Source of the DNA: Candidatus Poseidoniaceae archaeon
GTDB lineage: Archaea > Thermoplasmatota > Poseidoniia > Poseidoniales > Poseidoniaceae
DNA: 64,000 bases
NCBI GenBank assembly: GCA_965662895.1
Contig: CBFIJH010000001.1
Location: 96,001 to 160,000 of the forward strand
Reading direction: 5' to 3'
Below the pieces are notes generated by a model. That model was not told the DNA's origin, made no database searches, and saw only the letters and a program-made list of their open reading frames with translations. A program made the position numbers and the translations under genes. Of the stretch, positions 425 to 37,541 are shown one piece after another. Position 1 is the stretch's first letter; the number at the start of each line of letters is the position of its first letter.

Positions 425-1999
425 CTAGAATCCGCTGGGTGCAGAGTACGTGCCAAAGACTTCCTTCATGGCTTGCATGATTTCACCGAGTGTTGCATCA
501 GCTCGAACGGCATCAAGGACAAGAGGAAACAGGTTCGAGCCATCCTTTGCGGCGTTCGTAATACGTTCAAGAATCAGAATGACATCCTCACTCTTCCTAT
601 TTTGACGCAGTTCTTGCAGACGTTCGCATTGCTGTTGAAACACCTTTGGATTCAGTTTCATAGGCTTGATTTGAAGAGATTCGTCCATAGTACCGTGATT
701 AATACCTACAATTTTTCGGGAACCATCCTCAATTTCGTTGAAATAGCGATATGCTGTAGTATGAATTTCTTGTTGCTGATAGCCTTGCTCGATTGCTTTT
801 AATGCGCCACCCATCGATTCAATATGTCGAATCTCTTCTTTTGCTCGTTTGTAAATCTCATCGGTAAGGGATTCAATATGATAGGAACCAGCAAAAGGAT
901 CGACGACATCAGCAACACCCGATTCTTCTGCAATAATTTGTTGTGTACGTAAAGCGATGGTTGCACTTTCCTCTGTGGGTAGTCCCAATGCCTCATCATA
1001 ACTGTTGGTGTGCAGGCTTTGTGTACCACCACATACTGCAGCAAGCGCTTGAATCGTAACACGACTGATGTTGTTCAACGGTTGTTGTGCTGTCAACGAA
1101 ACACCGGCGACTTGTGTATGGAATCGTAATTGGGTTGAACGTGGATTTTTCGGAGAATAACGCTCTTTCATTAAATCGTGCCAGAGCCGTCGTGCAGCGC
1201 GAAATTTTGAGATCTCTTCAAGGAAATCATTGTGACAGTTGAAGAAAAACGATAACCTTGGAGCAAAAGAATCAACCTCCAGCCCTTTGGTATGAGCTGA
1301 TTCAACATAGGCAAGTGCATTTGATAGTGTGAACGCTAATTCTTGAACAGCGGTTGACCCGGCTTCTCGTATGTGATAACCTGAAATTGAAATGGTATTC
1401 CATTTCGGAATATTTTTCGAACAATGTTCGAAGATGTCCGTAATCAAGCGCATGGAATGCTCAGGTGGAAAGACGTATGTGCCGCGTGCAATGTATTCCT
1501 TGAGTATATCATTCTGGATTGTCCCTGAAATTTTTTCACTTGTAACACCTTGTTCTTCAGCCACAACGCAATACATTGCAAGTAAAATCATTGCAGGAGC
1601 GTTAATTGTCATGGATGTCGATACCTTGTTCAATGGTATCTGATCAAACAAATCTCTCATGTCCTGAAGGCAAGAAATTGAGACGCCAACCTTTCCTACT
1701 TCTCCTTCACTCAGCGGATCATCCGCATCAAGGCCTAGCTGTGTTGGTAAGTCGAAGGCGACTGAGAGGCCTTTTTGACCACGGTCGAGCAGGAGTCTAA
1801 AACGCTCATTTGTTTCTTTTGCTGAAGAGAAACCAGCATATTGGCGCATGGTCCACAATCTGTTGCGATACATTTTTTCGTGGATTCCTCGGGTGTATGG
1901 GGGCGATCCGGGAATTTCAGTAGCATCCTTGGGTTTGTGATACGCAGGAATGGGCAAGCCTCCAAGGGTTTCCCAGGATGACTTTCTCAACTCAACCAT
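425..1999 (-). CDS. Methylmalonyl-CoA mutase, substrate-binding (large/N-terminal) subunit
   Basis: PYTRG, WTMRQYAGF (Tyr variant, methylmalonyl-CoA type), GLSVAFDLPT, GTIQNDILKEY, SISGYHIREAG, QSLHTNSYDEA. No fused B12-binding domain. Start 1999 chosen from promoter-box spacing. Confidence 0.93.
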   Translation of the reverse strand: MVELRKSSWETLGGLPIPAYHKPKDATEIPGSPPYTRGIHEKMYRNRLWTMRQYAGFSSAKETNERFRLLLDRGQKGLSVAFDLPTQLGLDADDPLSEGEVGKVGVSISCLQDMRDLFDQIPLNKVSTSMTINAPAMILLAMYCVVAEEQGVTSEKISGTIQNDILKEYIARGTYVFPPEHSMRLITDIFEHCSKNIPKWNTISISGYHIREAGSTAVQELAFTLSNALAYVESAHTKGLEVDSFAPRLSFFFNCHNDFLEEISKFRAARRLWHDLMKERYSPKNPRSTQLRFHTQVAGVSLTAQQPLNNISRVTIQALAAVCGGTQSLHTNSYDEALGLPTEESATIALRTQQIIAEESGVADVVDPFAGSYHIESLTDEIYKRAKEEIRHIESMGGALKAIEQGYQQQEIHTTAYRYFNEIEDGSRKIVGINHGTMDESLQIKPMKLNPKVFQQQCERLQELRQNRKSEDVILILERITNAAKDGSNLFPLVLDAVRADATLGEIMQAMKEVFGTYSAPSGF

Positions 2000-2020
2000 G
2001 ACTCGCCCATGCAAAGACGA

Positions 2021-2028
2021 TTCATCAA
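2021..2028 (-). promoter_or_regulatory. Putative promoter box TTGATGAA at -29..-22 from the mutase ATG
   Basis: Same octamer class and spacing as upstream of many other genes in the window. Confidence 0.55.
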
Positions 2029-2040
2029 GCCTCGCATGAA

Positions 2041-2523
2041 TCAGTGCTGATGTCCGCCAGGTCCATGCGCATGGCCGTGCGCCAATTCTTCAGCAGAAGC
2101 CGCACGCACATCAACAACTTCAACACTAAACTGCAGGGTTTCTCCTGCAAGTTTGTGATTAAAATCTACTGTGACGGTTTCACCCTCAACGGATACAACG
2201 TTGAATGGACCAACATCTGACATGAGGGTCATACCTGGTTCCGGTTTTATATCTCCAAACATTTCGGATGGAATCTGTTGAATTGCTTCAGCATTTTTTT
2301 CTCCATAAGCGCGCTCTGGCTCAAGCGTAAACGTTCGGCGCTCACCTTTTTTAGCACCCATCAATTCTTGCTCAAATCCAGGAATCATTTGCTTGTGCCC
2401 GACGAGAAACGTCAGTGGATCGCGACCCTCACTGCTATCAAAAACTTCGCCGGTTTCAGGTAGAGTACCTGTGTAATGTACTGATGCGACCGCATCCTTT
2501 TCTATTGTTGCCATATTGTTCAT
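2041..2523 (-). CDS. slyD: FKBP-type peptidyl-prolyl isomerase, SlyD family
   Basis: VHYTGTL, FDSS, PLTFLVG, IPGFE, AYG, VDFNHKLAG; His-rich tail HGHAHGPGGHQH. Confidence 0.92.
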   Translation of the reverse strand: MNNMATIEKDAVASVHYTGTLPETGEVFDSSEGRDPLTFLVGHKQMIPGFEQELMGAKKGERRTFTLEPERAYGEKNAEAIQQIPSEMFGDIKPEPGMTLMSDVGPFNVVSVEGETVTVDFNHKLAGETLQFSVEVVDVRAASAEELAHGHAHGPGGHQH

Positions 2524-3401
2524 CTCTTCGTTGTCAAGGCCTTGACGAGGACTCTTAGTTGTTCGGCAATTTCTGGACTGATAATCAGTTGTTCTTGTTT
2601 CTCTTCAATGAAATCAAATGACGCTTCTACACCAATACGTTCACCCTTTGCCCAAATTTGTCCGAGTAGATTTGAACGGTGTTCCTCTGCAACAAATTCA
2701 TTGTCAAGAATATCACGTGCAGCGTATTTGTAATCGTTGTATCGTTGCCGATTCAATTTCTTGACCTTTGGTTGTCGCCCGCCACCGTCATCATAACGTG
2801 AACGTCGTCTTCGATGTTCTCGTTTTTTCGGTGTCTTCGTGGCAATTTGTTTGAATACATTTTTCGATGAAGTACTTTCGACTTCTGGAAGGATTTCGAC
2901 TTCTGGACCGACTACTTCTTCAGGTATCTTCTCTTGAATAGGGGCTTCAGACATCTTGATTGTTTCTTCAATGGTGTTTGTAACGGGGGTGACCTTCGGT
3001 TCAAGAATCGATTCTGTTTTCTTAACGGACTCTTGCGATTGTTTCCTTAACTCGGCAAGACGATCGGCTCGTGAGACTTGTTGAGGCGCATTGTTCGAAT
3101 CAGTCTTTCGAATATCGTCAATATCTACAGCAGGTTTTTGCACAGAAGGCTTTGCTTGTTGTGCCTGTGCTCCGAGTCTTTTTCTTGCTTCCTCTTGCTT
3201 TCTGCGCAAATCATCTTGAACTGCGGTTTGACGAGTCGGGGTGCGTTGCTGACCAGCGTGGCTTGGGGGCGCGGAGGAGTTTCGCTCGCTTCGCTTTTTT
3301 TGGCGAACTTGGTTGGCATTTGCAGCAAATGGATTGAATGGTTCATCCGGTTTTCTGCGCCTGTCTCGAATTTTAAATCCCCCAGTATTCGTAACTCTCA
3401 T
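2520..3401 (-). CDS. Hypothetical protein: long charged/disordered N-terminus, Arg-rich patch and small helical C-terminal domain
   Basis: Uninterrupted ORF between kae1 and slyD, overlapping the slyD start (ATGA). Start uncertain. Confidence 0.7.
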   Translation of the reverse strand: MRVTNTGGFKIRDRRRKPDEPFNPFAANANQVRQKKRSERNSSAPPSHAGQQRTPTRQTAVQDDLRRKQEEARKRLGAQAQQAKPSVQKPAVDIDDIRKTDSNNAPQQVSRADRLAELRKQSQESVKKTESILEPKVTPVTNTIEETIKMSEAPIQEKIPEEVVGPEVEILPEVESTSSKNVFKQIATKTPKKREHRRRRSRYDDGGGRQPKVKKLNRQRYNDYKYAARDILDNEFVAEEHRSNLLGQIWAKGERIGVEASFDFIEEKQEQLIISPEIAEQLRVLVKALTTKR

Positions 3402-30343: not shown

Positions 30344-31549
30344 TCAGGGTTGAACTATACTCGCCCATCCTTTGAGACTAAGAAACGTTGCAGATGACTC
30401 AGAGACGTGCAATCGATCACCTTTTGCAACATCGTGTTGATCTTCGCCAAACCTCAAAACGGCATCATCCACAGTTATTTCTACGTCAATCGATTTGTCT
30501 TTCCCAAATACAAACGCTTCACTCAATGCATCAAATGGATTAGGCCCCTCAGGGTCAAGTCTCTCTAGAGGAAATTCTGTAACACGCATGCCTGTCTTTC
30601 CGTGCAACGACGTTGGCCAACGTATTTGCCTCCGAACATCGATTGTAACAACTTCATCTGTTTCCCCTGCAGCACCAAGAACAATGGATGAATCCGATTT
30701 CACGAGATTCAAAAAAAGGGCTTGATGGGCTCCCAATCGAGAGATTTGACCGTTGATAACGGCATTTCGTCGCTCAGTGTGGAGAAACATATCTGCCAGT
30801 TTCCGTATACTTGCCGGACCTTTGCCGGGTTTCCCTTCGCGCTGGAGATGGTCTTTCAATCCAAGATGGAGTTGTTTCATCTCTTTCGATGCGTTTTCAT
30901 CATTCTCTGCGATTCGAACAAGTTTATCGATAAGCAACGGGACTTGTTGCCGAATTCGTTTTGTCCACCCATTTGCACTCGCATCATGGAAGCGTGTTAA
31001 TCCACCTTGAACATCAACGCCTTCTCCACGAATGAATGAGACAAGTTCCCGCCGAGCCTCAGAATCGAGATGAAACAATGATGGATCTCGATAGTGAAGG
31101 TGGAATCCACGATGACCGGAGAAGGTCACCTGCAAGAATGATTCATCAAATCCAAATTCAGGTTCCAAAAAATCGTTCCATAATGCGTGCGCCTGGTCGC
31201 GAATAACATCCAACATCGCAGGAAAATCACGGTCTGTAACGCCCGGTAGGTGATCACCATCCAAATCAAAGATTAAGTCAGCACCATGCCAAATCTTGTC
31301 GTTCATTTTGAGTTCGTATGGTTTCTGCCAATAAGCAGTTGAGTAGAAGCATGAATGCATGGCACGATCCGATAAGAAGTGACGAAGTTCTTGCTCGTTT
31401 CGAAACGATTTATGTCGAAGAGGAGGACTTCCTCCAAACGGAATAAACATCCATTCTCTCTTGGGCATTCGTGGTGGACGCCAAAATTTAGATGTTCGGT
31501 AATATTGACCGAACCGGTGTGCAAATCGTGCCCATCCGGTTGAAGCCAT
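30344..31549 (-). CDS. priS: DNA primase catalytic small subunit
   Basis: REW, FYSTAYW, ADLIFDLDGD, FSGHRGFH, DEVVTIDVRRQIRWPTSLHGKTG. Confidence 0.93.
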   Translation of the reverse strand: MASTGWARFAHRFGQYYRTSKFWRPPRMPKREWMFIPFGGSPPLRHKSFRNEQELRHFLSDRAMHSCFYSTAYWQKPYELKMNDKIWHGADLIFDLDGDHLPGVTDRDFPAMLDVIRDQAHALWNDFLEPEFGFDESFLQVTFSGHRGFHLHYRDPSLFHLDSEARRELVSFIRGEGVDVQGGLTRFHDASANGWTKRIRQQVPLLIDKLVRIAENDENASKEMKQLHLGLKDHLQREGKPGKGPASIRKLADMFLHTERRNAVINGQISRLGAHQALFLNLVKSDSSIVLGAAGETDEVVTIDVRRQIRWPTSLHGKTGMRVTEFPLERLDPEGPNPFDALSEAFVFGKDKSIDVEITVDDAVLRFGEDQHDVAKGDRLHVSESSATFLSLKGWASIVQP

Positions 31550-31585: not shown

Positions 31586-31795
31586 CTAGTCTTTCTTCAT
31601 GTAGAATTTTTGTTCGGTTTCTCCGACAACTGTTACAGTGTCAGCACCTGTTTGTTCAACGTAGTGATCCCAACAATAGTAATGCTGATTGTGGACCATT
31701 GCCGCACCAAATGTAAGCCGTGTGCCACAATCATGACAACGCGGACCAATTTCACCATTAGGGGCTTGTGCGAGTTGTACGTGCTCATGTGGCAT
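31586..31795 (-). CDS. Small Zn-finger protein (C-x2-C-x17-C-x2-H)
   Basis: RCHDCGTRL...YYCWDHY; AGGTGA SD upstream of ATG 31795. Confidence 0.7.
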   Translation of the reverse strand: MPHEHVQLAQAPNGEIGPRCHDCGTRLTFGAAMVHNQHYYCWDHYVEQTGADTVTVVGETEQKFYMKKD

Positions 31796-31852
31796 TATCT
31801 CACCTGATTGCTGCAAGAAGTCTCGGTTCTAAAATGTCGTGATGGATTCTGT

Positions 31853-32332
31853 TCATGCCGACACGGTACTGTTGCTGACCCATTCAAGCAAATCCAGTGC
31901 TACCTCGCACGATTCACGGACTTCAACATTGTCATCTGTAAGGTATTTTTCCAAAACTGGCACGGCATCTCTGTTGCCTATGGCACCAAGTGCTTCTGCA
32001 GCCTCGTGACGTACCATAACGTGTTCTGATGAATCGGAAAGAATCTCGATGAGCGTAGGTAATGCTTCGTCCATTTGCATCTGGCCTAAGACGTAGGCCA
32101 GTTCATGCCGCAAAAGAGCGCTCTTTGATTCAAATGCTTCGCATAGTACAAGACAGGACTCCTCATTCCGTATATTTCGCAACTTGAAAACTGCTCTCAT
32201 GCGTTCGAACATTTTCTCTTCCTCATTATGAAGCGTAGCCCGTAGATTTTCAATTTCCACAGTTTCAAAAGGTGGGGCGGGGTCGACGGAACCATATTCA
32301 CTGGTTTCTGGTCGCTGCTCCACCGTTTTCAC
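31853..32332 (-). CDS. HEAT-repeat protein, half-size deoxyhypusine hydroxylase (DOHH)-like
   Basis: YGSVDPAPP, FERMRAVFKLRN, SALLRHELAYVLGQMQ, MVRHEAAEALGAIG, VRESCEVALD. The alternative GTG start at 32323 is also possible. Confidence 0.82.
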   Translation of the reverse strand: MKTVEQRPETSEYGSVDPAPPFETVEIENLRATLHNEEEKMFERMRAVFKLRNIRNEESCLVLCEAFESKSALLRHELAYVLGQMQMDEALPTLIEILSDSSEHVMVRHEAAEALGAIGNRDAVPVLEKYLTDDNVEVRESCEVALDLLEWVSNSTVSA

Positions 32333-33210
32333 TCCTGTGCACCAATGAAGACTAAATTGCTCACATCAAAATCCTCACGAATCAATCCGAGTTCCTGACC
32401 TTCTTTGAGGAATTGCCGTATCGATTCTCTGCCCTCTGGTTTGTAATCGATGGTTCGGTCGTTAACGTACATTGTAACGAATTTTTGATTGGTTTCATCA
32501 TCAATACCCCTACCCCATGCTTTGGCAAACTCAAGGGCATCATCAGGATGCTCGATCGAGTGTTCAATGCTCATTTTGGTATACATGGTGATGTCTTCCA
32601 TGATGGTTTGTCCAAGATCTCTTCTCACCACATTTCCACCCAATGGCATTGGTAGACCATCGGTTTTCTGGTTCCACCAAACACCAAGATCAATCAGGAC
32701 GTTCAGATCGTGCTCGACATAGGTGAGTTGCCCTTCATGGATGATAAGCCCGCATTGGTATGTATCGTCGAGAATACGTGGAATAATCTCATCGAATGGG
32801 ACGACTTCAACATTCACATCACCCCACGCCAATCGTAAACCAAGGTAGGCAGAAGTTTTCATACCAGGAACAGCAATTGTCGAAGATTTTGCTTCGTCAA
32901 GGGTGAGGCCAGACTTTGCGACAATCATCGGGCCGTAACCTTCACCCATGGATGCCCCGCAATTCATCAGCGCGTAATTGTGTGCAATCTCGGGATAGGC
33001 GTGAATTGAAACAGCTGAAACCTCGAGTTCCTGATTCATTGCTCGATGATTGAGTGTTTCAATGTCTTGTAATTCATGGACGAACTTGTATCCCGGCGTT
33101 GGAAAAGCATTGGTTGTCATAGCGTGAAACATGAATGCATCATCAGGGTCAGGTGAATGCCCGATTCGAACAATGAGGTTGCCATCTTCATCTCGGGGGA
33201 GTTGCGTCAT
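32329..33210 (-). CDS. mqnD: 1,4-dihydroxy-6-naphthoate synthase (futalosine pathway)
   Basis: GHSPDPDDAFMF, DIETLN, GASMGEGYGP, IIHEGQLTY, DLGVWW, LPMPLG, MYVN. Confidence 0.88.
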   Translation of the reverse strand: MTQLPRDEDGNLIVRIGHSPDPDDAFMFHAMTTNAFPTPGYKFVHELQDIETLNHRAMNQELEVSAVSIHAYPEIAHNYALMNCGASMGEGYGPMIVAKSGLTLDEAKSSTIAVPGMKTSAYLGLRLAWGDVNVEVVPFDEIIPRILDDTYQCGLIIHEGQLTYVEHDLNVLIDLGVWWNQKTDGLPMPLGGNVVRRDLGQTIMEDITMYTKMSIEHSIEHPDDALEFAKAWGRGIDDETNQKFVTMYVNDRTIDYKPEGRESIRQFLKEGQELGLIREDFDVSNLVFIGAQE

Positions 33211-33231
33211 ACAACAACCAAGTGCATTCCC

Positions 33232-33239
33232 TTCAAGAA
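33232..33239 (-). promoter_or_regulatory. Putative promoter box TTCTTGAA at -29..-22 from mqnD ATG
   Basis: Fixed-spacing octamer. Confidence 0.55.
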
Positions 33240-33316
33240 CCAACCGCATCATTTTGAAAACAAAATTTAGTTATTAGGAACGGATTGTTTATGTATTTCT
33301 TGAAATAGTTTCGAAC

Positions 33317-35542
33317 ATGGAAACAAGGCCGGGGCTAAGAAGCAGTCTCTTTGTCCTTGCCATCACATTCACACTGCTCAGCCTGACTTCTGCGGCGGCT
33401 CAGGAGAATCTGTTCTTTGTTGACTCTGTTGAGATACCGGATTCCGAGCCCGGAAAACGGACCATTGAAATGGACCAAACTGGGGCTTTTTATGCATCCC
33501 AAGGGAAAACAATTTACAAACTGTCTCCAAATCTAACGATTCTTGAACAACGATCCCTAGCAAACGAAATTCTCTCAACATCGATTTCACCTGATTCCTC
33601 AAAACTTGCCGTCACCCTACGTTCACCTGTTCAAGGTATTGATTCTGTCTTTGTTTTATCGACTGGAGACTTGAGCACCCTTGCTTCTAGCGACCTTACA
33701 GAATCCAATGCATACCTCCTCCAATGGTCACCAAATGGAGCAAAGTTGTTGACCAACGCCCCAGAAAATGGAATTATCGAGTTGAATCGTGATAACCTGG
33801 AGCAGGAACAACTCTACACAGGCAACCATACAGATGACGTTGTATGCCTCGATGTCTCAAAAGAGAGTGGCTCCATTCTCAGTGTCGACGTTCAGGGGAA
33901 CGTTCATTTGTGGAACAATCCGGGTGGAGAAATTTATTATGATGCTGTCACAGATTCAGAGGTTCTTGATTGCAAAATCGAACCAAATGATCAATACTTT
34001 GCTGTTTCAACAAAAGAAAACGGCATTCGGAGGTGGACTTTTTCCGGAACGGAACTCAAACCAATCGACTTCAACAATGCTCTCGATTTTGAATTTGGAC
34101 AAAAACCGAATACACTCGTCATTCATACAAAAACATCACATAATCGATTGGTTCAGTATGATATCGTAAATGATGAAATGCTCGATCAAATTACAATATT
34201 CCACGAGTTTGATGATTTTGTTGTTGTCAACTCTGACACGAACTCAATCAAATCGGTCGTGTTCGATTCGAACGTTGATTACATCGTCAAATATGGAAAC
34301 GAAGTTCAACGGCCAGGTACAGGCGTCTCTGGCATCGACACAGACGGCGACGGCATTCCTGACTCACTTGACGAAGATATTGATGGAGATGGAATAGAAA
34401 ATAGTTGGGACTTAAATTGTATTGATATTGGAATTGAGTGTGAGTACCTTCCTGATGAAGATTTCATGCGTACAATTGATTTGTACGTCAATGAAACACA
34501 TCTCAACATGCGACAAACGTTTACGTTGAATAAGCAATTCTCTTCGAGCATACGGGACCTAGCTCGGTTCTCTCTGAATGATGATATCCGACTCACATCT
34601 GATGAAACACAACACTTTGCTGATTCCATTTGTGAAAACATTAACACAAATGATGCAAGCATATTCTTGTTATCGCAACTCGCCCTTGAAAATGCATCAC
34701 TTCGTTTTGATGAAGCATATTGTACGATTGACGATGGGATGACACTCACACCTGCGGAAGACCGCGTGTCACACATTCGATACACAATCCATTATCGATA
34801 TGCATTCGAGGGCTTGCAGTCAATTGATGCCGTATCTGTTGATATCATGAACCATCGGTTTCCAAGTTCTGGCAGCATAACCGAACTCAGTGAACAACAT
34901 CCAATCCTGATTCAAATCGGAGGAGAGTCCATCGTTTCAGAAAAATATTCACCTTGGCATGTACAAGAGGAGATAATCACCTTCAAACTTCAATCAACTC
35001 AAGAAGATGAAACTATCATTTCTCCTGAGAATCTATTCAATTCGCCGATTACGTACGTTGTTCTCCTCATGGGAATAATCGTTATTGGTGTTGTAACACA
35101 ACGTTTGTATGATCAGATGACCAAATCAGGTTATGACATCGAATTGGATGATGAGGAAGATGACGCACTCAATGAGGAAATCGAAAACATCTACGAAGAA
35201 GTCTATGAGGATGAATGGGAAGATGATATTACCAGTAAACCTGGTGAAATAAAGGCCGGGAAACGCGTAGTTACGGCTCCAAGCAAGCAAGTTGCAGTTC
35301 GAAAGAAGAAAAAGGCGGATGCCCAAAGAATACTCGAAGAGTCATCAAATGAAGTTGTACGCAAAAGGAAGGCTCGCAAACCTTCACCTGATGCGATAAA
35401 AACCAAGCGTCGGAAATTAAGTGACACATCTACTCGGGACGCACAGCCAAGAAAACGTCGTTCAGTTAAGCGAGCTGTTCAAGTCGAGGATGAAAAAGAT
35501 GAAACCGTGAAACGGTTCGTATCAGAGTCACCAAAGGAATGA
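33317..35542 (+). CDS. Secreted/surface beta-propeller (WD40-like) protein with DxDxDG Ca-binding repeat, C-terminal TM anchor and charged cytoplasmic tail
   Basis: Signal peptide; SPDSSKLA, WSPNGAKL, HTDDVVCLD..VHLWN, IRRW; DTDGDGIPDSLDEDIDGDGIENSWD; TM YVVLLMGIIVIGVV. Confidence 0.75.
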   Translation: METRPGLRSSLFVLAITFTLLSLTSAAAQENLFFVDSVEIPDSEPGKRTIEMDQTGAFYASQGKTIYKLSPNLTILEQRSLANEILSTSISPDSSKLAVTLRSPVQGIDSVFVLSTGDLSTLASSDLTESNAYLLQWSPNGAKLLTNAPENGIIELNRDNLEQEQLYTGNHTDDVVCLDVSKESGSILSVDVQGNVHLWNNPGGEIYYDAVTDSEVLDCKIEPNDQYFAVSTKENGIRRWTFSGTELKPIDFNNALDFEFGQKPNTLVIHTKTSHNRLVQYDIVNDEMLDQITIFHEFDDFVVVNSDTNSIKSVVFDSNVDYIVKYGNEVQRPGTGVSGIDTDGDGIPDSLDEDIDGDGIENSWDLNCIDIGIECEYLPDEDFMRTIDLYVNETHLNMRQTFTLNKQFSSSIRDLARFSLNDDIRLTSDETQHFADSICENINTNDASIFLLSQLALENASLRFDEAYCTIDDGMTLTPAEDRVSHIRYTIHYRYAFEGLQSIDAVSVDIMNHRFPSSGSITELSEQHPILIQIGGESIVSEKYSPWHVQEEIITFKLQSTQEDETIISPENLFNSPITYVVLLMGIIVIGVVTQRLYDQMTKSGYDIELDDEEDDALNEEIENIYEEVYEDEWEDDITSKPGEIKAGKRVVTAPSKQVAVRKKKKADAQRILEESSNEVVRKRKARKPSPDAIKTKRRKLSDTSTRDAQPRKRRSVKRAVQVEDEKDETVKRFVSESPKE

Positions 35543-36340
35543 GATGTGATCCTTCATACCGCAGCATCGTGTGAGAAATTCCTGTAATCCTTTAACATGT
35601 TCATCATCCAGACGGTTAAAGACTTCACCAAAGTATTTGTTCAATCGGGTTAAGGACATGTCAGAATGAAGGTGCGCATGGAGAAGTACTTTTTCACGAG
35701 TTAATGAATCTGATTCAAAGGAATTTAATCTTTCCAGTAATGCGGTGTGTGCGGCTTTGACAGCATCAATTGGGGTGTCCTTACGAGCGGCGAATACACC
35801 GAATACCATTGGTTGACCTGTAAGGTCCAACCATGCTTGACCGAGGTCTAAACGAACCAGTTCAGGATTCGATTTTGCTCGATCGAGAGCCCTGTCACCA
35901 ATAAGGAGAGCACCATCACATCGTTCGAGCATGGAATCCAAATCCGGACCCATTTCAACCGGCCGAGGATCGATTCCACGCTCTCTGAAAAGATATTTCA
36001 GGAGGGCAACCGAAGATGAAGAGTCTGTGGGTAAGGCAATGTCGCGCATTTCTTCCAAAGGGCGGCTCCCAAATACAAGGACACTTCCGACTTCTCCCTT
36101 TGAACAGATACCAATTTCTGGTACGAGCGCTAGTTCATCGCTATGTTTTGCATAATCCGCAGCAGGAATAGGTGCGAGAACACAGTCCCTGCGCAAGAGA
36201 TGTCCTGTCAGCCACGATGGGGGAGCGGGTAAGACATTGAAGGATTCATCAAGGCCTACAAACAATGGATCACAATTCATGAAGGCGACGCGGCCGATTG
36301 TTTTCATCCAGAGGGGGGAATTTGTCAACACATCGATCAT
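35528..36340 (-). CDS. mqnA: Chorismate dehydratase (futalosine pathway)
   Basis: IGRVAFMNCDPL, GEVGSV, SSSSVALL, LLIGDRAL, DLGQAWLDLTGQPMVFGV. Confidence 0.88.
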   Translation of the reverse strand: MIDVLTNSPLWMKTIGRVAFMNCDPLFVGLDESFNVLPAPPSWLTGHLLRRDCVLAPIPAADYAKHSDELALVPEIGICSKGEVGSVLVFGSRPLEEMRDIALPTDSSSSVALLKYLFRERGIDPRPVEMGPDLDSMLERCDGALLIGDRALDRAKSNPELVRLDLGQAWLDLTGQPMVFGVFAARKDTPIDAVKAAHTALLERLNSFESDSLTREKVLLHAHLHSDMSLTRLNKYFGEVFNRLDDEHVKGLQEFLTRCCGMKDHISFLW

Positions 36341-36341
36341 C

Positions 36342-37541
36342 TCATGCCATTGGTAACCGCTTGACCGGCTCAGGTGGAATATATTCAGAAAAGTGAGTGT
36401 ACGTTGTATTGCGTTTAATCGGCGTACATTTTGCATTGTGGATGAGTTTTGCAAGTTGCTGAAGGTCGTGTGTCAACGGTGTGGTTGAACCTGCAAGATG
36501 CATAATGGATTCTTGTTGAACCGTTCCATCAATGTCATCGGCCCCAAATTGTAGCGCTAATTCAGCAAGTTCATCGCCAATATTCATGCGATAGGCTTTG
36601 ATGTGGGGAATGCTCTCAAGCAAAATCCTTGATACTGCGATCACTCGTAAGATTTCCTGTCCAGTCGAAAGTTGAGCCATGGGGAGACGTGTTGAATCAG
36701 GCAGGAATGGATAAGGAACAAAACATTGGAATCCGTTTGTTTGATTTGCTAGGTCTCTTAGTTTCAAGATGTGGTCAACTCTCTGGGAGGCTGTTTCGAT
36801 TGTACCAAAGAGCATTGTGCAGTTGCTGGGAAGACCAAGTTCATGCGCAGTTCTGTGAATGTCCAGATATTCTTGGCTTGACTCTTTCCCGTTGCATATG
36901 ACTGCTCGAACCTCATCATCAAGAATCTCTGCACCGCCGCCAGGAAGCGATGTAAGGCCTGCTTTCTTCAACACATCGAGTGTCGTTCCAATTGAAAGAT
37001 TCGAGATTTCAGCAAGATGCTTGATCTCAACTGCTGTTAATGCCTTGATGGACACGTGTGGATGTTCTTTGCGAATGCGCTTGAAGAGTTCTGAATAGTG
37101 TTCGACAGTCCATTCCGGATGAAGGCCCCCAACAGAGTGTACTTCATCGACAAAAGGTGAAAATTTGGTTAATTCTTCCATGTAAGCGTCGATGGATAAC
37201 GCATACGCATCATCTGCTTTTGGTCCTCGTCGAAATGCACAAAAGCGACAGGCTAGAACGCAGACATTTGTTTGATTAATGTGGACATTTGAATTAAAAA
37301 ATGCCTTGTCACCAAACATTGCAGTTTTGAAATGATGGGCTAATTTTCCGATCTCAAACAAATTTGGTTCTTCAAAGAGTTGTATTCCATCAGCATGATC
37401 GAGTTCTTGGTCATCAAGAATTATATCAACGATTCTTTGAACAGATTTTGCCCACTCATCGTTCTTCAGTTTGGTTTTGAGAATAGCCCTCCAATCTGGA
37501 TTGCGGCCGGCTACATCAGGTGTAGAGGACCATTCTTTCAT
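36342..37541 (-). CDS. mqnE: Aminodeoxyfutalosine synthase (radical SAM, CofH/MqnE family)
   Basis: TNVCVLACRFCAF, EVHSVGGLHP, IKALTAVEI, PGGGAEI, HIKAY, FGADDIDGT; directly upstream of mqnA. Confidence 0.82.
   Translation of the reverse strand: MKEWSSTPDVAGRNPDWRAILKTKLKNDEWAKSVQRIVDIILDDQELDHADGIQLFEEPNLFEIGKLAHHFKTAMFGDKAFFNSNVHINQTNVCVLACRFCAFRRGPKADDAYALSIDAYMEELTKFSPFVDEVHSVGGLHPEWTVEHYSELFKRIRKEHPHVSIKALTAVEIKHLAEISNLSIGTTLDVLKKAGLTSLPGGGAEILDDEVRAVICNGKESSQEYLDIHRTAHELGLPSNCTMLFGTIETASQRVDHILKLRDLANQTNGFQCFVPYPFLPDSTRLPMAQLSTGQEILRVIAVSRILLESIPHIKAYRMNIGDELAELALQFGADDIDGTVQQESIMHLAGSTTPLTHDLQQLAKLIHNAKCTPIKRNTTYTHFSEYIPPEPVKRLPMA

What the first reader, a model, noticed from the sequence alone, without database searches (positions are those of the whole stretch)
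31853..32332. Half-size deoxyhypusine hydroxylase (DOHH): candidate homodimeric archaeal hypusine-forming enzyme
Seen: a 159-aa HEAT protein with YGSVDPAPP, FERMRAVFKLRN, SALLRHELAYVLGQMQ, MVRHEAAEALGAIG and VRESCEVALD; its His-Glu motifs (H76-E77, H109-E110) are 33 residues apart. Known: eukaryotic DOHH (~300 aa) is an internal duplication of two 4-HEAT halves, each with two HE motifs 33 residues apart (human H56/H89 and H207/H240), joined by a YxSVDPAPP linker, with the diiron site built from both halves. This ORF follows the linker plus C-half closely and also has N-half features (LLxHELAYxLGQMQ, LEW). Archaeal aIF5A is deoxyhypusinated or hypusinated, but as far as I know no archaeal DOHH has been characterised. 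Inference: a single-module homodimer could rebuild the diiron site and may be the pre-duplication form of DOHH, giving O2-dependent hypusination in an aerobic marine archaeon. It is translationally coupled behind mqnD, so another hydroxylation role cannot be excluded.
Basis: partly seen in the sequence, partly recalled or inferred. Interest (0 to 1): 0.9.

Follow-up and report, generated by a model that had tools for sequence, protein, structure and literature searches.

The report
Half-size archaeal deoxyhypusine hydroxylase homologue
A marine archaeon carries a half-length version of the iron enzyme that eukaryotes use to finish the unusual amino acid hypusine, and two copies probably pair up to do the same job, which may show how the eukaryotic enzyme first arose.

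Summary
It is a specific relative of deoxyhypusine hydroxylase (DOHH), not a generic PBS-lyase HEAT protein. It matches human DOHH (4D4Z) at E 1.7e-67, and both halves of the human enzyme align to it. Every iron-binding and substrate-binding residue is kept.

It is not a fragment. The half-size gene is found in 109 of 401 Thermoplasmatota genomes, 104 of which carry cytochrome oxidase. A more distant half-size group exists in TACK archaea.

A homodimer model scores 0.88 against 0.26 for the best control. It places H76, H109 and M106 on the two-fold axis, but it may echo the solved human structure.

aIF5A is present. The canonical deoxyhypusine synthase is missing from this 92%-complete assembly but present in all four relatives checked.

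The link to the upstream menaquinone gene is lineage-specific: 13 of 20 other carriers have no such gene.

Trees keep the half-size proteins outside both eukaryotic half-clades. The best tree nests the eukaryotic halves within the archaeal half-size radiation, but likelihood tests do not settle this.

Activity, iron binding and the substrate are untested. I found no paper describing an archaeal DOHH.

The parts
31853..32332 (-). Half-size DOHH homologue, 159 aa (156 aa if translation starts at the GTG at 32323). It consists of one N-terminal arm plus four HEAT repeats.
   Evidence: ORF and translation. PDB phmmer gives human DOHH at E 1.7e-67 with both halves matched. Pfam gives HEAT_2 at 3.9e-25 and HEAT_PBS at 8e-17. 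Alternative start.
32270..32296 (-). N-terminal arm motif YGSVDPAPP (residues 13-21). It is the counterpart of the inter-domain linker motif of eukaryotic DOHH.
   Evidence: A DPAP-type motif is present in 37 of 38 half-size loci. D17 and P18 are invariant in 35 of 35 aligned sequences. DP[AT]P occurs in the linker of 95 of 105 full-length DOHHs. Residues 8-21 lie in the predicted dimer interface.
32102..32107 (-). First His-Glu motif (H76-E77). It aligns with human H56-E57 and H207-E208.
   Evidence: Codons CAT GAA read. Alignment to 4d4z. Roles of the human residues from PMC9117371. Invariant in 35 of 35.
32003..32008 (-). Second His-Glu motif (H109-E110). It aligns with human H89-E90 and H240-E241.
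   Evidence: Codons CAC GAG read. Alignment. Invariant in 35 of 35. H109 is at the predicted dimer interface.
32329..33252 (-). Its stop codon overlaps the start of the half-size DOHH gene.
   Evidence: PF02621 at E 1.5e-65. Adjacent in 18 of 19 same-family loci; the 19th ends at a contig edge. Fused in frame with the half-size gene in L041.
31586..31816 (-). Conserved small Cys/His-rich ORF (76 aa) just downstream. Context only; function unknown.
   Evidence: Found downstream in 18 of 19 same-family loci. Only weak LIM and PP0621 hits, all below cut-offs.
30344..31549 (-). DNA primase small subunit PriS. Context, and a marker that the genome is archaeal.
   Evidence: PF01896 at 1.4e-16 and NCBIfam PriS at 6.7e-60. 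Syntenic in 19 of 19 same-family loci.
35564..37406 (-). A second PF02621 gene (35564-36301) and an MqnC/MqnE-like radical-SAM gene (36393-37406). They show that the neighbourhood is a futalosine-pathway menaquinone cluster.
   Evidence: Whole-genome family searches, converted to window coordinates.

Best explanation
The gene encodes one 'half' of a deoxyhypusine hydroxylase: an N-terminal arm followed by four HEAT repeats that carry two His-Glu motifs. Two identical chains most likely pack face to face around a two-fold axis. Each chain would give a His-His-Glu set to one iron, rebuilding the non-haem diiron centre that eukaryotic DOHH builds from its N- and C-halves. With O2, this homodimer would hydroxylate the deoxyhypusine side chain on the conserved lysine of aIF5A (loop SKPGKHGSAK) to make hypusine. 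Shown here: specific homology to DOHH, conservation of every catalytic and side-chain-binding residue, conservation of the half-size form across many aerobic archaea, and the presence of aIF5A. Inferred: homodimerisation (model only), iron binding, O2 chemistry and the identity of the substrate. By parsimony the half-size form looks like the state before the duplication and fusion that produced eukaryotic DOHH.
For: Homology:
- Human DOHH 4d4z scores E 1.7e-67 and both halves match. Natural PBS lyase CpcE scores only 9.3e-09.
- Lyase NCBIfam models fall far below their cut-offs.

Active site:
- Through the alignment, H76/E77/G83/H109/E110 correspond to human H56/E57/G63/H89/E90 and to H207/E208/G214/H240/E241.
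- A review passage names these as the diiron anchors and the residues that bind the deoxyhypusine side chain (PMC9117371).
- All five are invariant in 35 of 35 half-size sequences.

Not a fragment:
- 102 of the 120 best relatives are 139-166 aa.
- 109 of 401 genomes of the phylum carry the gene in half-size frames.
- This genome has one copy.

Dimer:
- ipSAE is 0.88 (runs 0.89, 0.88, 0.87) against a best control of 0.26. Partner pLDDT is at least 89 and the runs share at least 72% of contacts.
- In the tool's calibration, 20 of 30 proteins solved as pairs of one chain reached the mark, as did 1 of 23 solved as single chains.
- The interface is symmetric. It includes the arm (residues 8-21), H76, H109 and E113, with M106 touching M106'.

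Oxygen:
- 104 of 109 carriers also have COX1 (my hand count).
- No carrier lies in the six families with zero COX1 that I tallied (f4, f5, f15, f18, f26, f29; 147 genomes).

Pathway:
- aIF5A with the modification loop is present.
- A canonical DHS is present in 4 of 4 relatives checked.

Independence from menaquinone synthesis:
- PF02621 is found in only 7 of 20 carriers from other families, and in 0 of 8 in family f28.

Evolution:
- Core identity of the half-size proteins is 41.6% to N-halves and 44.6% to C-halves. N- and C-halves of the same protein share 37.6%.
- The N and C clans each exclude the half-size proteins (96 and 92; 97/85 and 99/96).
Against: - No biochemical data of any kind exist for this protein.
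- In 119 loci with 1.5-4 kb flanks, the gene never sits beside aIF5A, DHS, agmatinase or the SpeD-like gene. Context therefore gives no support for a hypusine role.
- In Poseidoniales the gene is coupled to, and in one genome fused with, an MqnA/MqnD-family gene.
- The canonical DHS is not found in this genome. Only a SpeY-like paralogue in an agmatinase/SpeD-like cluster is found. The whole region seen in a relative is missing, which suggests an assembly gap but does not prove one.
- The gene is dispensable in some relatives: it is found in 23 of 37 genomes of the sister family and 15 of 21 of one genus.
- Early amino-acid analyses found deoxyhypusine with little or no hypusine in the Euryarchaeota tested, including Thermoplasmales (PMC5178350 passage).
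- The dimer score may reflect the model's memory of the two-domain human structure.
Confidence: 0.6

Rival explanations
1. It is a homodimeric diiron oxygenase of the DOHH type, but it acts on something other than aIF5A. Candidates are a free or protein-bound polyamine such as homospermidine, or, in Poseidoniales, a step linked to the menaquinone gene it is coupled to.
For: - Translational coupling to the MqnA/MqnD-family gene in 18 of 19 same-family loci, and an in-frame fusion in L041.
- No neighbourhood link to aIF5A or DHS in 119 loci.
- These genomes carry an agmatinase/SpeD-like/DHS-like polyamine cluster. PMC10407285 describes that cluster type as speB-speDA-speY.
Against: - 13 of 20 carriers outside Poseidoniales have no PF02621 gene, so a menaquinone role cannot be the family's general function.
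- From my own knowledge, the futalosine pathway needs no hydroxylation step.
- The residues that hold the deoxyhypusine side chain in human DOHH (E57/E208 and G63/G214 equivalents) are invariant.
- Identity to eukaryotic halves is 42-46% over the core, which is high for enzymes with different substrates.
Confidence: 0.25
2. The half-size gene is not ancestral. It is a secondary truncation, linker plus C-half, of a two-half DOHH that archaea acquired from a stem or crown eukaryote.
For: - The arm motif matches the eukaryotic linker.
- All 150 half-size sequences are slightly closer to C-halves than to N-halves (44.6% against 41.6%).
- With generic HEAT outgroups, none of the three rootings is rejected (p-AU 0.59, 0.41, 0.44).
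Against: - The C-half clan excludes all half-size sequences (92; 99/96).
- Half-size proteins are closer to both halves than the halves are to each other.
- They carry the N-half state at one of the two diagnostic columns: L at column 74.
- A more distant half-size group exists in TACK archaea. When the tree is rooted on that group, other Thermoplasmatota half-size lineages branch below the clade that holds the eukaryotic halves (100/98).
- That nesting is not decisive. Forcing all half-size proteins into one clade costs 8.2 lnL (p-AU 0.13).
Confidence: 0.15
3. It is a non-catalytic HEAT-repeat scaffold or a PBS-lyase-like protein that merely resembles DOHH.
For: Pfam and NCBIfam return only generic HEAT and PBS-lyase families. 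NCBI names relatives 'HEAT repeat domain-containing protein'.
Against: - The lyase models score 26-35 bits against cut-offs of 300-600.
- DOHH scores 58 orders of magnitude better than natural CpcE.
- Both His-Glu motifs and their surrounding residues are invariant across sequences that are only 39-94% identical overall.
Confidence: 0.04
4. It is a gene fragment or pseudogene left from a full-length DOHH.
For: It is half the length of every characterised DOHH.
Against: - The same-size gene is intact in over 100 genomes. Only 2 of the listed matches contain internal stops (G240, G264).
- The upstream gene is an intact, unrelated PF02621 gene that overlaps the start codon.
- There is no second half anywhere in this genome.
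Confidence: 0.01

Closest known systems
Eukaryotic deoxyhypusine hydroxylase (human DOHH, PDB 4D4Z/4D50; yeast Lia1; Drosophila nero)
   Same: HEAT-repeat fold. Two His-Glu motifs 33 residues apart per four-repeat module. The same flanking signatures (SALLRHE.AY.LGQ and MVRHE..EALG). The SVDPAPP motif. 42-46% core identity to either half.
   Different: It has one four-repeat module per chain instead of two, so the diiron site must form between two identical chains. The SVDPAPP segment is an N-terminal arm rather than an inter-domain linker. The host is an archaeon, a domain in which two papers state that no DOHH orthologue is known (PMC5178350; PMC8153317). The expected substrate is aIF5A rather than eIF5A.
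TACK-type half-size HEAT proteins (Candidatus Marsarchaeota G1/G2, 'Thermoprotei archaeon', Candidatus Caldarchaeum sp.). They are uncharacterised; sources name them PBS lyase, HEAT repeat protein or deoxyhypusine monooxygenase.
   Same: They are 163-181 aa and keep both His-Glu motifs and the GQ that follows the first one. Apart from their own group, their next-best relatives are eukaryotic DOHHs.
   Different: They have no DPAPP arm. The His-Glu spacing is 32. The glutamate equivalent to E113 is replaced. P0303 is only 40% identical to the query, and only over query residues 67-159.
Phycobilisome lyase and degradation HEAT proteins (CpcE, CpeY, NblB) and YibA-type PBS-HEAT proteins
   Same: The same Pfam repeat type, HEAT_PBS and HEAT_2.
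   Different: They score far below the family cut-offs and far below DOHH in PDB (5n3u CpcE at 9.3e-09; 1oyz YibA at 4.4e-04). Eight generic HEAT-repeat segments used as an outgroup contained one His-Glu dipeptide in total.

Membership tests
Deoxyhypusine hydroxylase (DOHH, EC 1.14.99.29) | Sequence similarity to characterised DOHH well above that to generic HEAT or PBS-lyase proteins | tested here: met
   4d4z_A at E 1.7e-67 against natural CpcE 5n3u at 9.3e-09. Full-length eukaryotic DOHHs (Phytophthora, Geosiphon, Hirondellea) are 43-50% identical.
Deoxyhypusine hydroxylase (DOHH, EC 1.14.99.29) | [quoted passage not shown] | tested here: inconclusive
   Each chain has two motifs (H76-E77 and H109-E110). 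They align with both human pairs and are invariant in 35 of 35. Four motifs arise only if the protein dimerises, which is predicted but not shown.
Deoxyhypusine hydroxylase (DOHH, EC 1.14.99.29) | Eight tandem HEAT repeats in a symmetrical dyad within one polypeptide | tested here: not met
   The chain is 159 aa, equal to one linker plus one half. There is a single copy in the genome. The dyad could exist only as a homodimer.
Deoxyhypusine hydroxylase (DOHH, EC 1.14.99.29) | Residues that bind the deoxyhypusine side chain (human E57, E90, E208, E241 and the glycines after the first motif of each half) | tested here: met
   E77, E110 and G83 align with them and are invariant in 35 of 35. The residue list comes from PMC9117371.
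Deoxyhypusine hydroxylase (DOHH, EC 1.14.99.29) | Binds two irons and forms a long-lived peroxo-diiron(III) intermediate | not testable with these tools
   This needs purified protein. The complex model carried two Fe ions, but small molecules are not scored.
Deoxyhypusine hydroxylase (DOHH, EC 1.14.99.29) | Hydroxylates deoxyhypusine on (e/a)IF5A, and the substrate pathway is present | tested here: inconclusive
   aIF5A is present with the KPGKHGSAK loop. The canonical DHS is not found in this 92%-complete assembly but is present in 4 of 4 relatives. Activity is untested.
PBS-lyase HEAT proteins (CpcE/CpeY/NblB) | Score above the NCBIfam equivalog cut-off | tested here: not met
   NblB 35 bits against a cut-off of 300; CpeY 31.7 against 600; CpcE 26 against 330.

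The most novel reading that the evidence does not exclude
Half-size DOHH is the ancestral, homodimeric form of the enzyme and arose in aerobic archaea. The abundant planktonic Poseidoniales and their relatives therefore make true hypusine with O2. Eukaryotic DOHH arose by tandem duplication and fusion of such a gene, losing the first arm, from a lineage close to the Poseidoniales/f28 type. That would make this oxygen-dependent step of translation-factor maturation an archaeal invention passed to eukaryotes.
Probability: 0.4. Interest if true: 0.9.

Novelty: new variant of a known kind. Interest (0 to 1): 0.8.

Why it matters
Reviews and primary papers state that archaea have deoxyhypusine synthase but no DOHH orthologue (PMC5178350, 2016; PMC8153317, 2021). 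How, and whether, archaea make hypusine has been open since the 1990s. This family gives a concrete candidate that can be cloned, and it occurs in one of the most abundant archaeal groups of the surface ocean.

It also offers a natural 'half enzyme'. A diiron oxygenase built across a homodimer interface of a protein-binding repeat fold is the simplest route to the de novo birth of this oxidase, a question discussed in PMC9040561. It is also the obvious precursor of the eight-repeat eukaryotic enzyme.

It does not solve the Sulfolobus case. No HEAT_2 protein was detected in the Sulfolobus acidocaldarius control genome.

Automatic pipelines (JGI, Atlas cluster names) already label these proteins 'deoxyhypusine monooxygenase'. 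The novelty therefore lies in recognising the half-size architecture, its distribution and its evolutionary position, not in the bare similarity.

Tried and rejected
- **RNA evidence.** The look-up of sequencing runs listed no RNA holder. It listed 4 runs from one study whose kind is not on record. Read laying was not used. This says nothing about expression.
- **Gene neighbourhood.** tblastn with aIF5A, both DHS types, agmatinase and the SpeD-like protein found nothing in 119 loci. Neighbours are not conserved among distant families.
- **Rooting with generic HEAT segments.** The quick tree left the half-size proteins unresolved. The constrained trees N+C and H+C both beat the quick free tree. 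An AU test of the three rootings, on fast-search trees of a reduced 53-row set, rejected none. To make that set I dropped 11 long-branch full-length proteins and 3 long outgroup rows. One IQ-TREE run timed out with no output, and the full searches did not finish.
- **Fast tree with the TACK outgroup.** It grouped the Poseidoniales-type proteins with N-halves. The careful mixture-model tree collapsed this to a trichotomy, so I do not rely on it.
- **The phylum-wide DHS search.** Its place list was cut, so it could not be used to look for co-localisation.
- **PF01287.** It found no aIF5A in the genome and rang in only 3 control genomes. TIGR00037 found it.
- **Long ORFs around the gene in GC-rich loci** (L028, L029, L035, L040, L042). 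These are open-frame artefacts, not fusions.
- **Asgard, Nitrososphaerota and Bathyarchaeota genomes.** I could not search them directly. The Atlas rows for the last two are untested leads.
- **Supplementary tables of Poseidoniales genome papers.** These were closed. They may already list KO K06072.
Full report
**Observation**

The window holds a 159-aa ORF at 31853..32332 on the minus strand with a GTG start. The two His-Glu pairs start at residues 76 and 109; their codons are CAT GAA at 32102-32107 and CAC GAG at 32003-32008.

The GTG overlaps the TGA stop of the upstream gene as GTGA. A second in-frame GTG three codons downstream (32323) lines up with the ATG used by close relatives, so the protein may be 156 aa.

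The upstream gene belongs to PF02621, the MqnA/MqnD family (E 1.5e-65). Downstream lie a 76-aa Cys/His-rich ORF and the primase subunit PriS.

**What family it is**

Pfam and NCBIfam return only generic HEAT families: HEAT_2 at 3.9e-25 and HEAT_PBS at 8e-17. The phycobilisome lyase models score 26-35 bits against cut-offs of 300-600.

Against PDB sequences the best hit by far is human deoxyhypusine hydroxylase 4d4z_A (E 1.7e-67, 229 bits). There are two matches, and neither needs a gap:
- query 26-153 on the N-half (104 bits);
- query 8-151 on the linker plus C-half (123 bits).

The next hits are designed alphaRep consensus repeats (4.8e-34 and weaker). Natural CpcE scores only 9.3e-09.

A review passage lists the human motifs H56-E57, H89-E90, H207-E208 and H240-E241. 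Six of these residues anchor the diiron centre. E57, E90, E208, E241 and two glycines bind the deoxyhypusine side chain (PMC9117371; four conserved His-Glu motifs are also noted in PMC3306375).

The PDB chain index runs five ahead of the residue number in both matches. With that offset, query H76, E77, G83, H109 and E110 fall on H56/H207, E57/E208, G63/G214, H89/H240 and E90/E241. The review prints 'G65' where this alignment gives 63.

**Not a fragment, and how widespread it is**

- The word-indexed protein search gave 3246 hits. Of the 120 listed, 102 are 139-166 aa at 64-94% identity, on contigs up to 921 kb. The other 18 are 241-273 aa at 45-52% identity, among them a beetle DOHH.
- JGI names several of the half-size proteins 'deoxyhypusine monooxygenase'. 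One NCBI record calls its protein 'hypothetical protein', and other relatives are named 'HEAT repeat domain-containing protein'.
- The exhaustive representative search lists about 300-aa proteins with two matched stretches at 43-50% identity. The three for which a look-up gave an organism name are eukaryotes: Geosiphon, Phytophthora and Hirondellea.
- A six-frame search of 401 genomes of the window's phylum finds the gene in 109. By family the counts are f1 51/57 (the window's own family), f2 23/37, f28 18/19, f9 7/9, f25 3/3, f27 2/6 and f17 1/1. It finds none in f3 (0/10), f4 (0/14), f5 (0/48), f15 (0/53), f18 (0/24) or f21 (0/9).
- The window's genome has one copy.
- Apparent long ORFs in GC-rich genomes are open-frame artefacts.
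- Record titles from the species-genome collection place the closest 80 loci in Candidatus Poseidoniaceae / Poseidoniales (Marine Group II, Thermoplasmatota). 406 loci in that collection encode a relative.

**Conserved anatomy**

In an alignment of 35 half-size proteins (39-94% identical to the query), the invariant residues include D17, P18, R75, H76, E77, G83, Q84, M106, V107, R108, H109, E110, E113 and G116.

The N-terminal [ST]xDPAP[PA] arm is present in 37 of 38 loci. In 105 full-length DOHHs the same motif lies in the inter-domain linker in 95. It lies ahead of the N-half in only 2.

The archaeal protein is therefore arm plus four HEAT repeats. The eukaryotic enzyme is four HEAT repeats, arm, four HEAT repeats.

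**Dimer**

I submitted two copies of the protein, with the 35-row alignment and two Fe ions riding along.
- The score was 0.88 (three runs: 0.89, 0.88, 0.87) against a best control of 0.26.
- Partner pLDDT was at least 89, and the runs shared at least 72% of contacts.
- In the tool's calibration, 20 of 30 proteins solved as pairs of one chain reached the mark, as did 1 of 23 solved as single chains.

The interface is symmetric. It comprises the arm (8-21) and residues 40-42, 71-73, H76, 83-84, 104-106, H109, E113, 136-137, 140-148 and 151. M106 touches M106', and H76 and H109 touch M106'. This places the two His-His-Glu sets face to face on the two-fold axis, as a diiron site needs.

The tool warns that a pass can come from likeness to solved structures. 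Here the two-domain human enzyme is an obvious template, so the result shows compatibility, not binding.

**Pathway context**

aIF5A is present on the same contig, 82 kb away. It carries the loop SKSKPGKHGSAKARL, and its closest solved relatives are archaeal IF5As.

The only DHS-family gene found in this genome (E 1.2e-44) sits in an agmatinase/SpeD-like/DHS-like cluster. PMC10407285 describes this arrangement in Marine Group II as speB-speDA-speY.

Most relatives have two DHS-family genes, the better one at about E 1e-89. The four I examined each have both types.

Three searches of this genome were made with material from a same-genus relative:
- its canonical DHS found only a weak match to the SpeY-like gene (E 9.4e-5);
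- its 3.9-kb surrounding DNA found nothing;
- its 419-aa neighbour found nothing.

The genome is 92% complete, so this looks like a missing region rather than a specific loss. It remains a gap in the evidence.

**Oxygen**

COX1 is found in 173 of the same 401 genomes. Comparing the two genome lists by hand, 104 of the 109 carriers have COX1. The five exceptions (G273, G145, G360, G064, G307) belong to families whose other members have it.

The six families with zero COX1 that I tallied (f4, f5, f15, f18, f26, f29; 147 genomes) hold no carrier. Several COX1-positive families (f3, f21, f22, f24, f34) also lack the gene.

Related genomes are not independent samples, so this is a pattern and not a statistical test.

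**The menaquinone link**

In the window's family the order PF02621 gene, half-size gene, small ORF, PriS is conserved. The PF02621 gene is adjacent in 18 of 19 loci (the 19th ends at a contig edge), and PriS is present in 19 of 19.

The window also holds a second PF02621 gene and an MqnC/E-like radical-SAM gene.

In one genome of the sister family (G092, locus L041) the two genes form one 460-aa ORF with no start codon near the junction.

Outside Poseidoniales the neighbour is different. Of 20 carriers from seven other families, 13 have no PF02621 match, including 0 of 8 in f28. The coupling is therefore a feature of this lineage and does not define the family's function.

**A second archaeal group**

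A 163-aa protein from Candidatus Marsarchaeota (P0303) is 40% identical to query residues 67-159. Its relatives are 163-181 aa and are named from Marsarchaeota G2, a 'Thermoprotei archaeon' and Candidatus Caldarchaeum. After its own group, its next-best hits are eukaryotic DOHHs.

This group keeps both His-Glu motifs (spacing 32) and the GQ after the first motif. It lacks the arm and the E113 equivalent.

The Atlas also lists 162-170-aa HEAT clusters from Nitrososphaerota and Bathyarchaeota. I could not test those.

HEAT_2 did not ring in the Sulfolobus acidocaldarius control genome. This family therefore does not explain the hypusine reported in Sulfolobus (PMC5178350).

**Evolution**

Over 128 core columns, with the arm excluded:
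- half-size proteins are 41.6% identical to N-halves and 44.6% to C-halves, and all 150 are closer to C;
- N- and C-halves of the same protein are 37.6% identical;
- of the two columns that separate the N and C consensus, the half-size proteins follow N at one and C at the other.

With eight generic HEAT segments as outgroup, the N clan (SH-aLRT 96) and the C clan (92) each exclude the half-size proteins, which sit unresolved at the base on short branches. The three possible rootings are not distinguished (p-AU 0.59, 0.41, 0.44).

With the TACK-type group as a closer outgroup, I built a careful mixture-model tree of 60 rows by 110 columns. It gives:
- TACK-type clan 100/100;
- half-size + N + C 100/100;
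- N clan 97/85;
- C clan 99/96;
- a 100/98 clade made of the Poseidoniales/f28 half-size proteins, the N clan and the C clan as a trichotomy, nested among the other Thermoplasmatota half-size lineages.

Holding N+C together costs 0.15 lnL (p-AU 0.455). Holding all half-size proteins together costs 8.2 lnL (p-AU 0.13; I named that group after seeing the tree).

What is firm is that the half-size proteins are not nested inside either eukaryotic half. Both archaeal groups are half-size, so half-size is the parsimonious ancestral state. Whether the eukaryotic halves truly arise from within Thermoplasmatota diversity is suggested but not established. Asgard genomes were not sampled.

**Literature**

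Six full-text searches found no paper describing an archaeal or half-size DOHH. For most hits I saw only the listing and the start of the abstract.

I read passages of the following:
[quoted passage not shown] - PMC9117371;
- PMC3306375;
- PMC10407285;
- PMC9040561, which treats DOHH as an oxidase born from a non-enzymatic HEAT scaffold and does not mention half-size forms;
- PMC6737245, which was not relevant.

Supplementary tables were closed. KO tables of Poseidoniales genome papers may already list this gene.

**Verdict**

This is a half-size, probably homodimeric, DOHH-type diiron protein conserved in aerobic Thermoplasmatota. Its most likely role is O2-dependent hydroxylation of deoxyhypusine on aIF5A (confidence 0.6). 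The main rival is the same chemistry on another substrate (0.25).

It is a new variant of a known enzyme kind. It has real evolutionary interest and can be tested directly at the bench.

Noticed in passing
L041 (G092:C2), ORF 1471-2853 (-): In-frame fusion of the MqnA/MqnD-family protein with the half-size DOHH (460 aa). The junction reads ...GIEFVGETVSPPRSRFDSVDPAPP... and has no start codon near it. It is seen in one genome only and could be a real fusion or a one-base assembly error.
   Followed up: partly
window 31586-31816 (-): A 76-aa Cys/His-rich ORF (RCHDCG...YYCWDHY) is conserved between the half-size DOHH gene and priS in 18 of 19 same-family loci. It has only weak LIM and PP0621 hits, all below cut-offs. 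Function unknown.
   Followed up: partly
P0303 and P0361-P0386 (proteins): A second, armless half-size DOHH-like family (163-181 aa) occurs in Candidatus Marsarchaeota, a 'Thermoprotei archaeon' and Candidatus Caldarchaeum. It keeps both His-Glu motifs with a spacing of 32. The Atlas suggests similar clusters in Nitrososphaerota and Bathyarchaeota; those are untested.
   Followed up: partly
L002 (G000:C7:79489-83391), ORFs 62-1072, 1073-1459 and 1456-2418 (+): A tightly packed agmatinase-like / SpeD-like (128 aa) / DHS-like (320 aa) cluster. It is the speB-speDA-speY arrangement reported for Marine Group II in PMC10407285.
   Followed up: partly
G000 whole genome, compared with L130 (G117:C11): The canonical DHS (about E 1e-89 in relatives), its 419-aa neighbour and the surrounding 3.9 kb are not found in the window's 92%-complete genome. 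This is probably an assembly gap.
   Followed up: yes
L049 and L052: Two contigs filed under bacterial MAG names (Salipiger bermudensis; uncultured Rhodobiaceae bacterium) carry a half-size gene 75-77% identical to the query, as do the Poseidoniales loci around them in the list. These are probably mis-binned archaeal contigs.
   Followed up: no
P0223 (full-length DOHH): One of only 2 of 105 full-length DOHHs with DPAP-type motifs at its N-terminus, ahead of the N-half (MSAEDPAPKPEQARDPAPL...). It may be a remnant of a first arm, or chance.
   Followed up: no
G354 (C29:4238-4687 and C55:24590-25039); also G274 and G098: A few genomes hold a second full or partial copy of the half-size gene. This could be duplication or bin contamination.
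   Followed up: no
window 33317-35542 (+): A 741-aa ORF on the opposite strand lies between the two PF02621 genes. It has a hydrophobic N-terminus, Asp-rich DxDGDG repeats, a late hydrophobic segment and a Lys/Arg-rich tail. Its N-terminal part is conserved only in close relatives.
   Followed up: no
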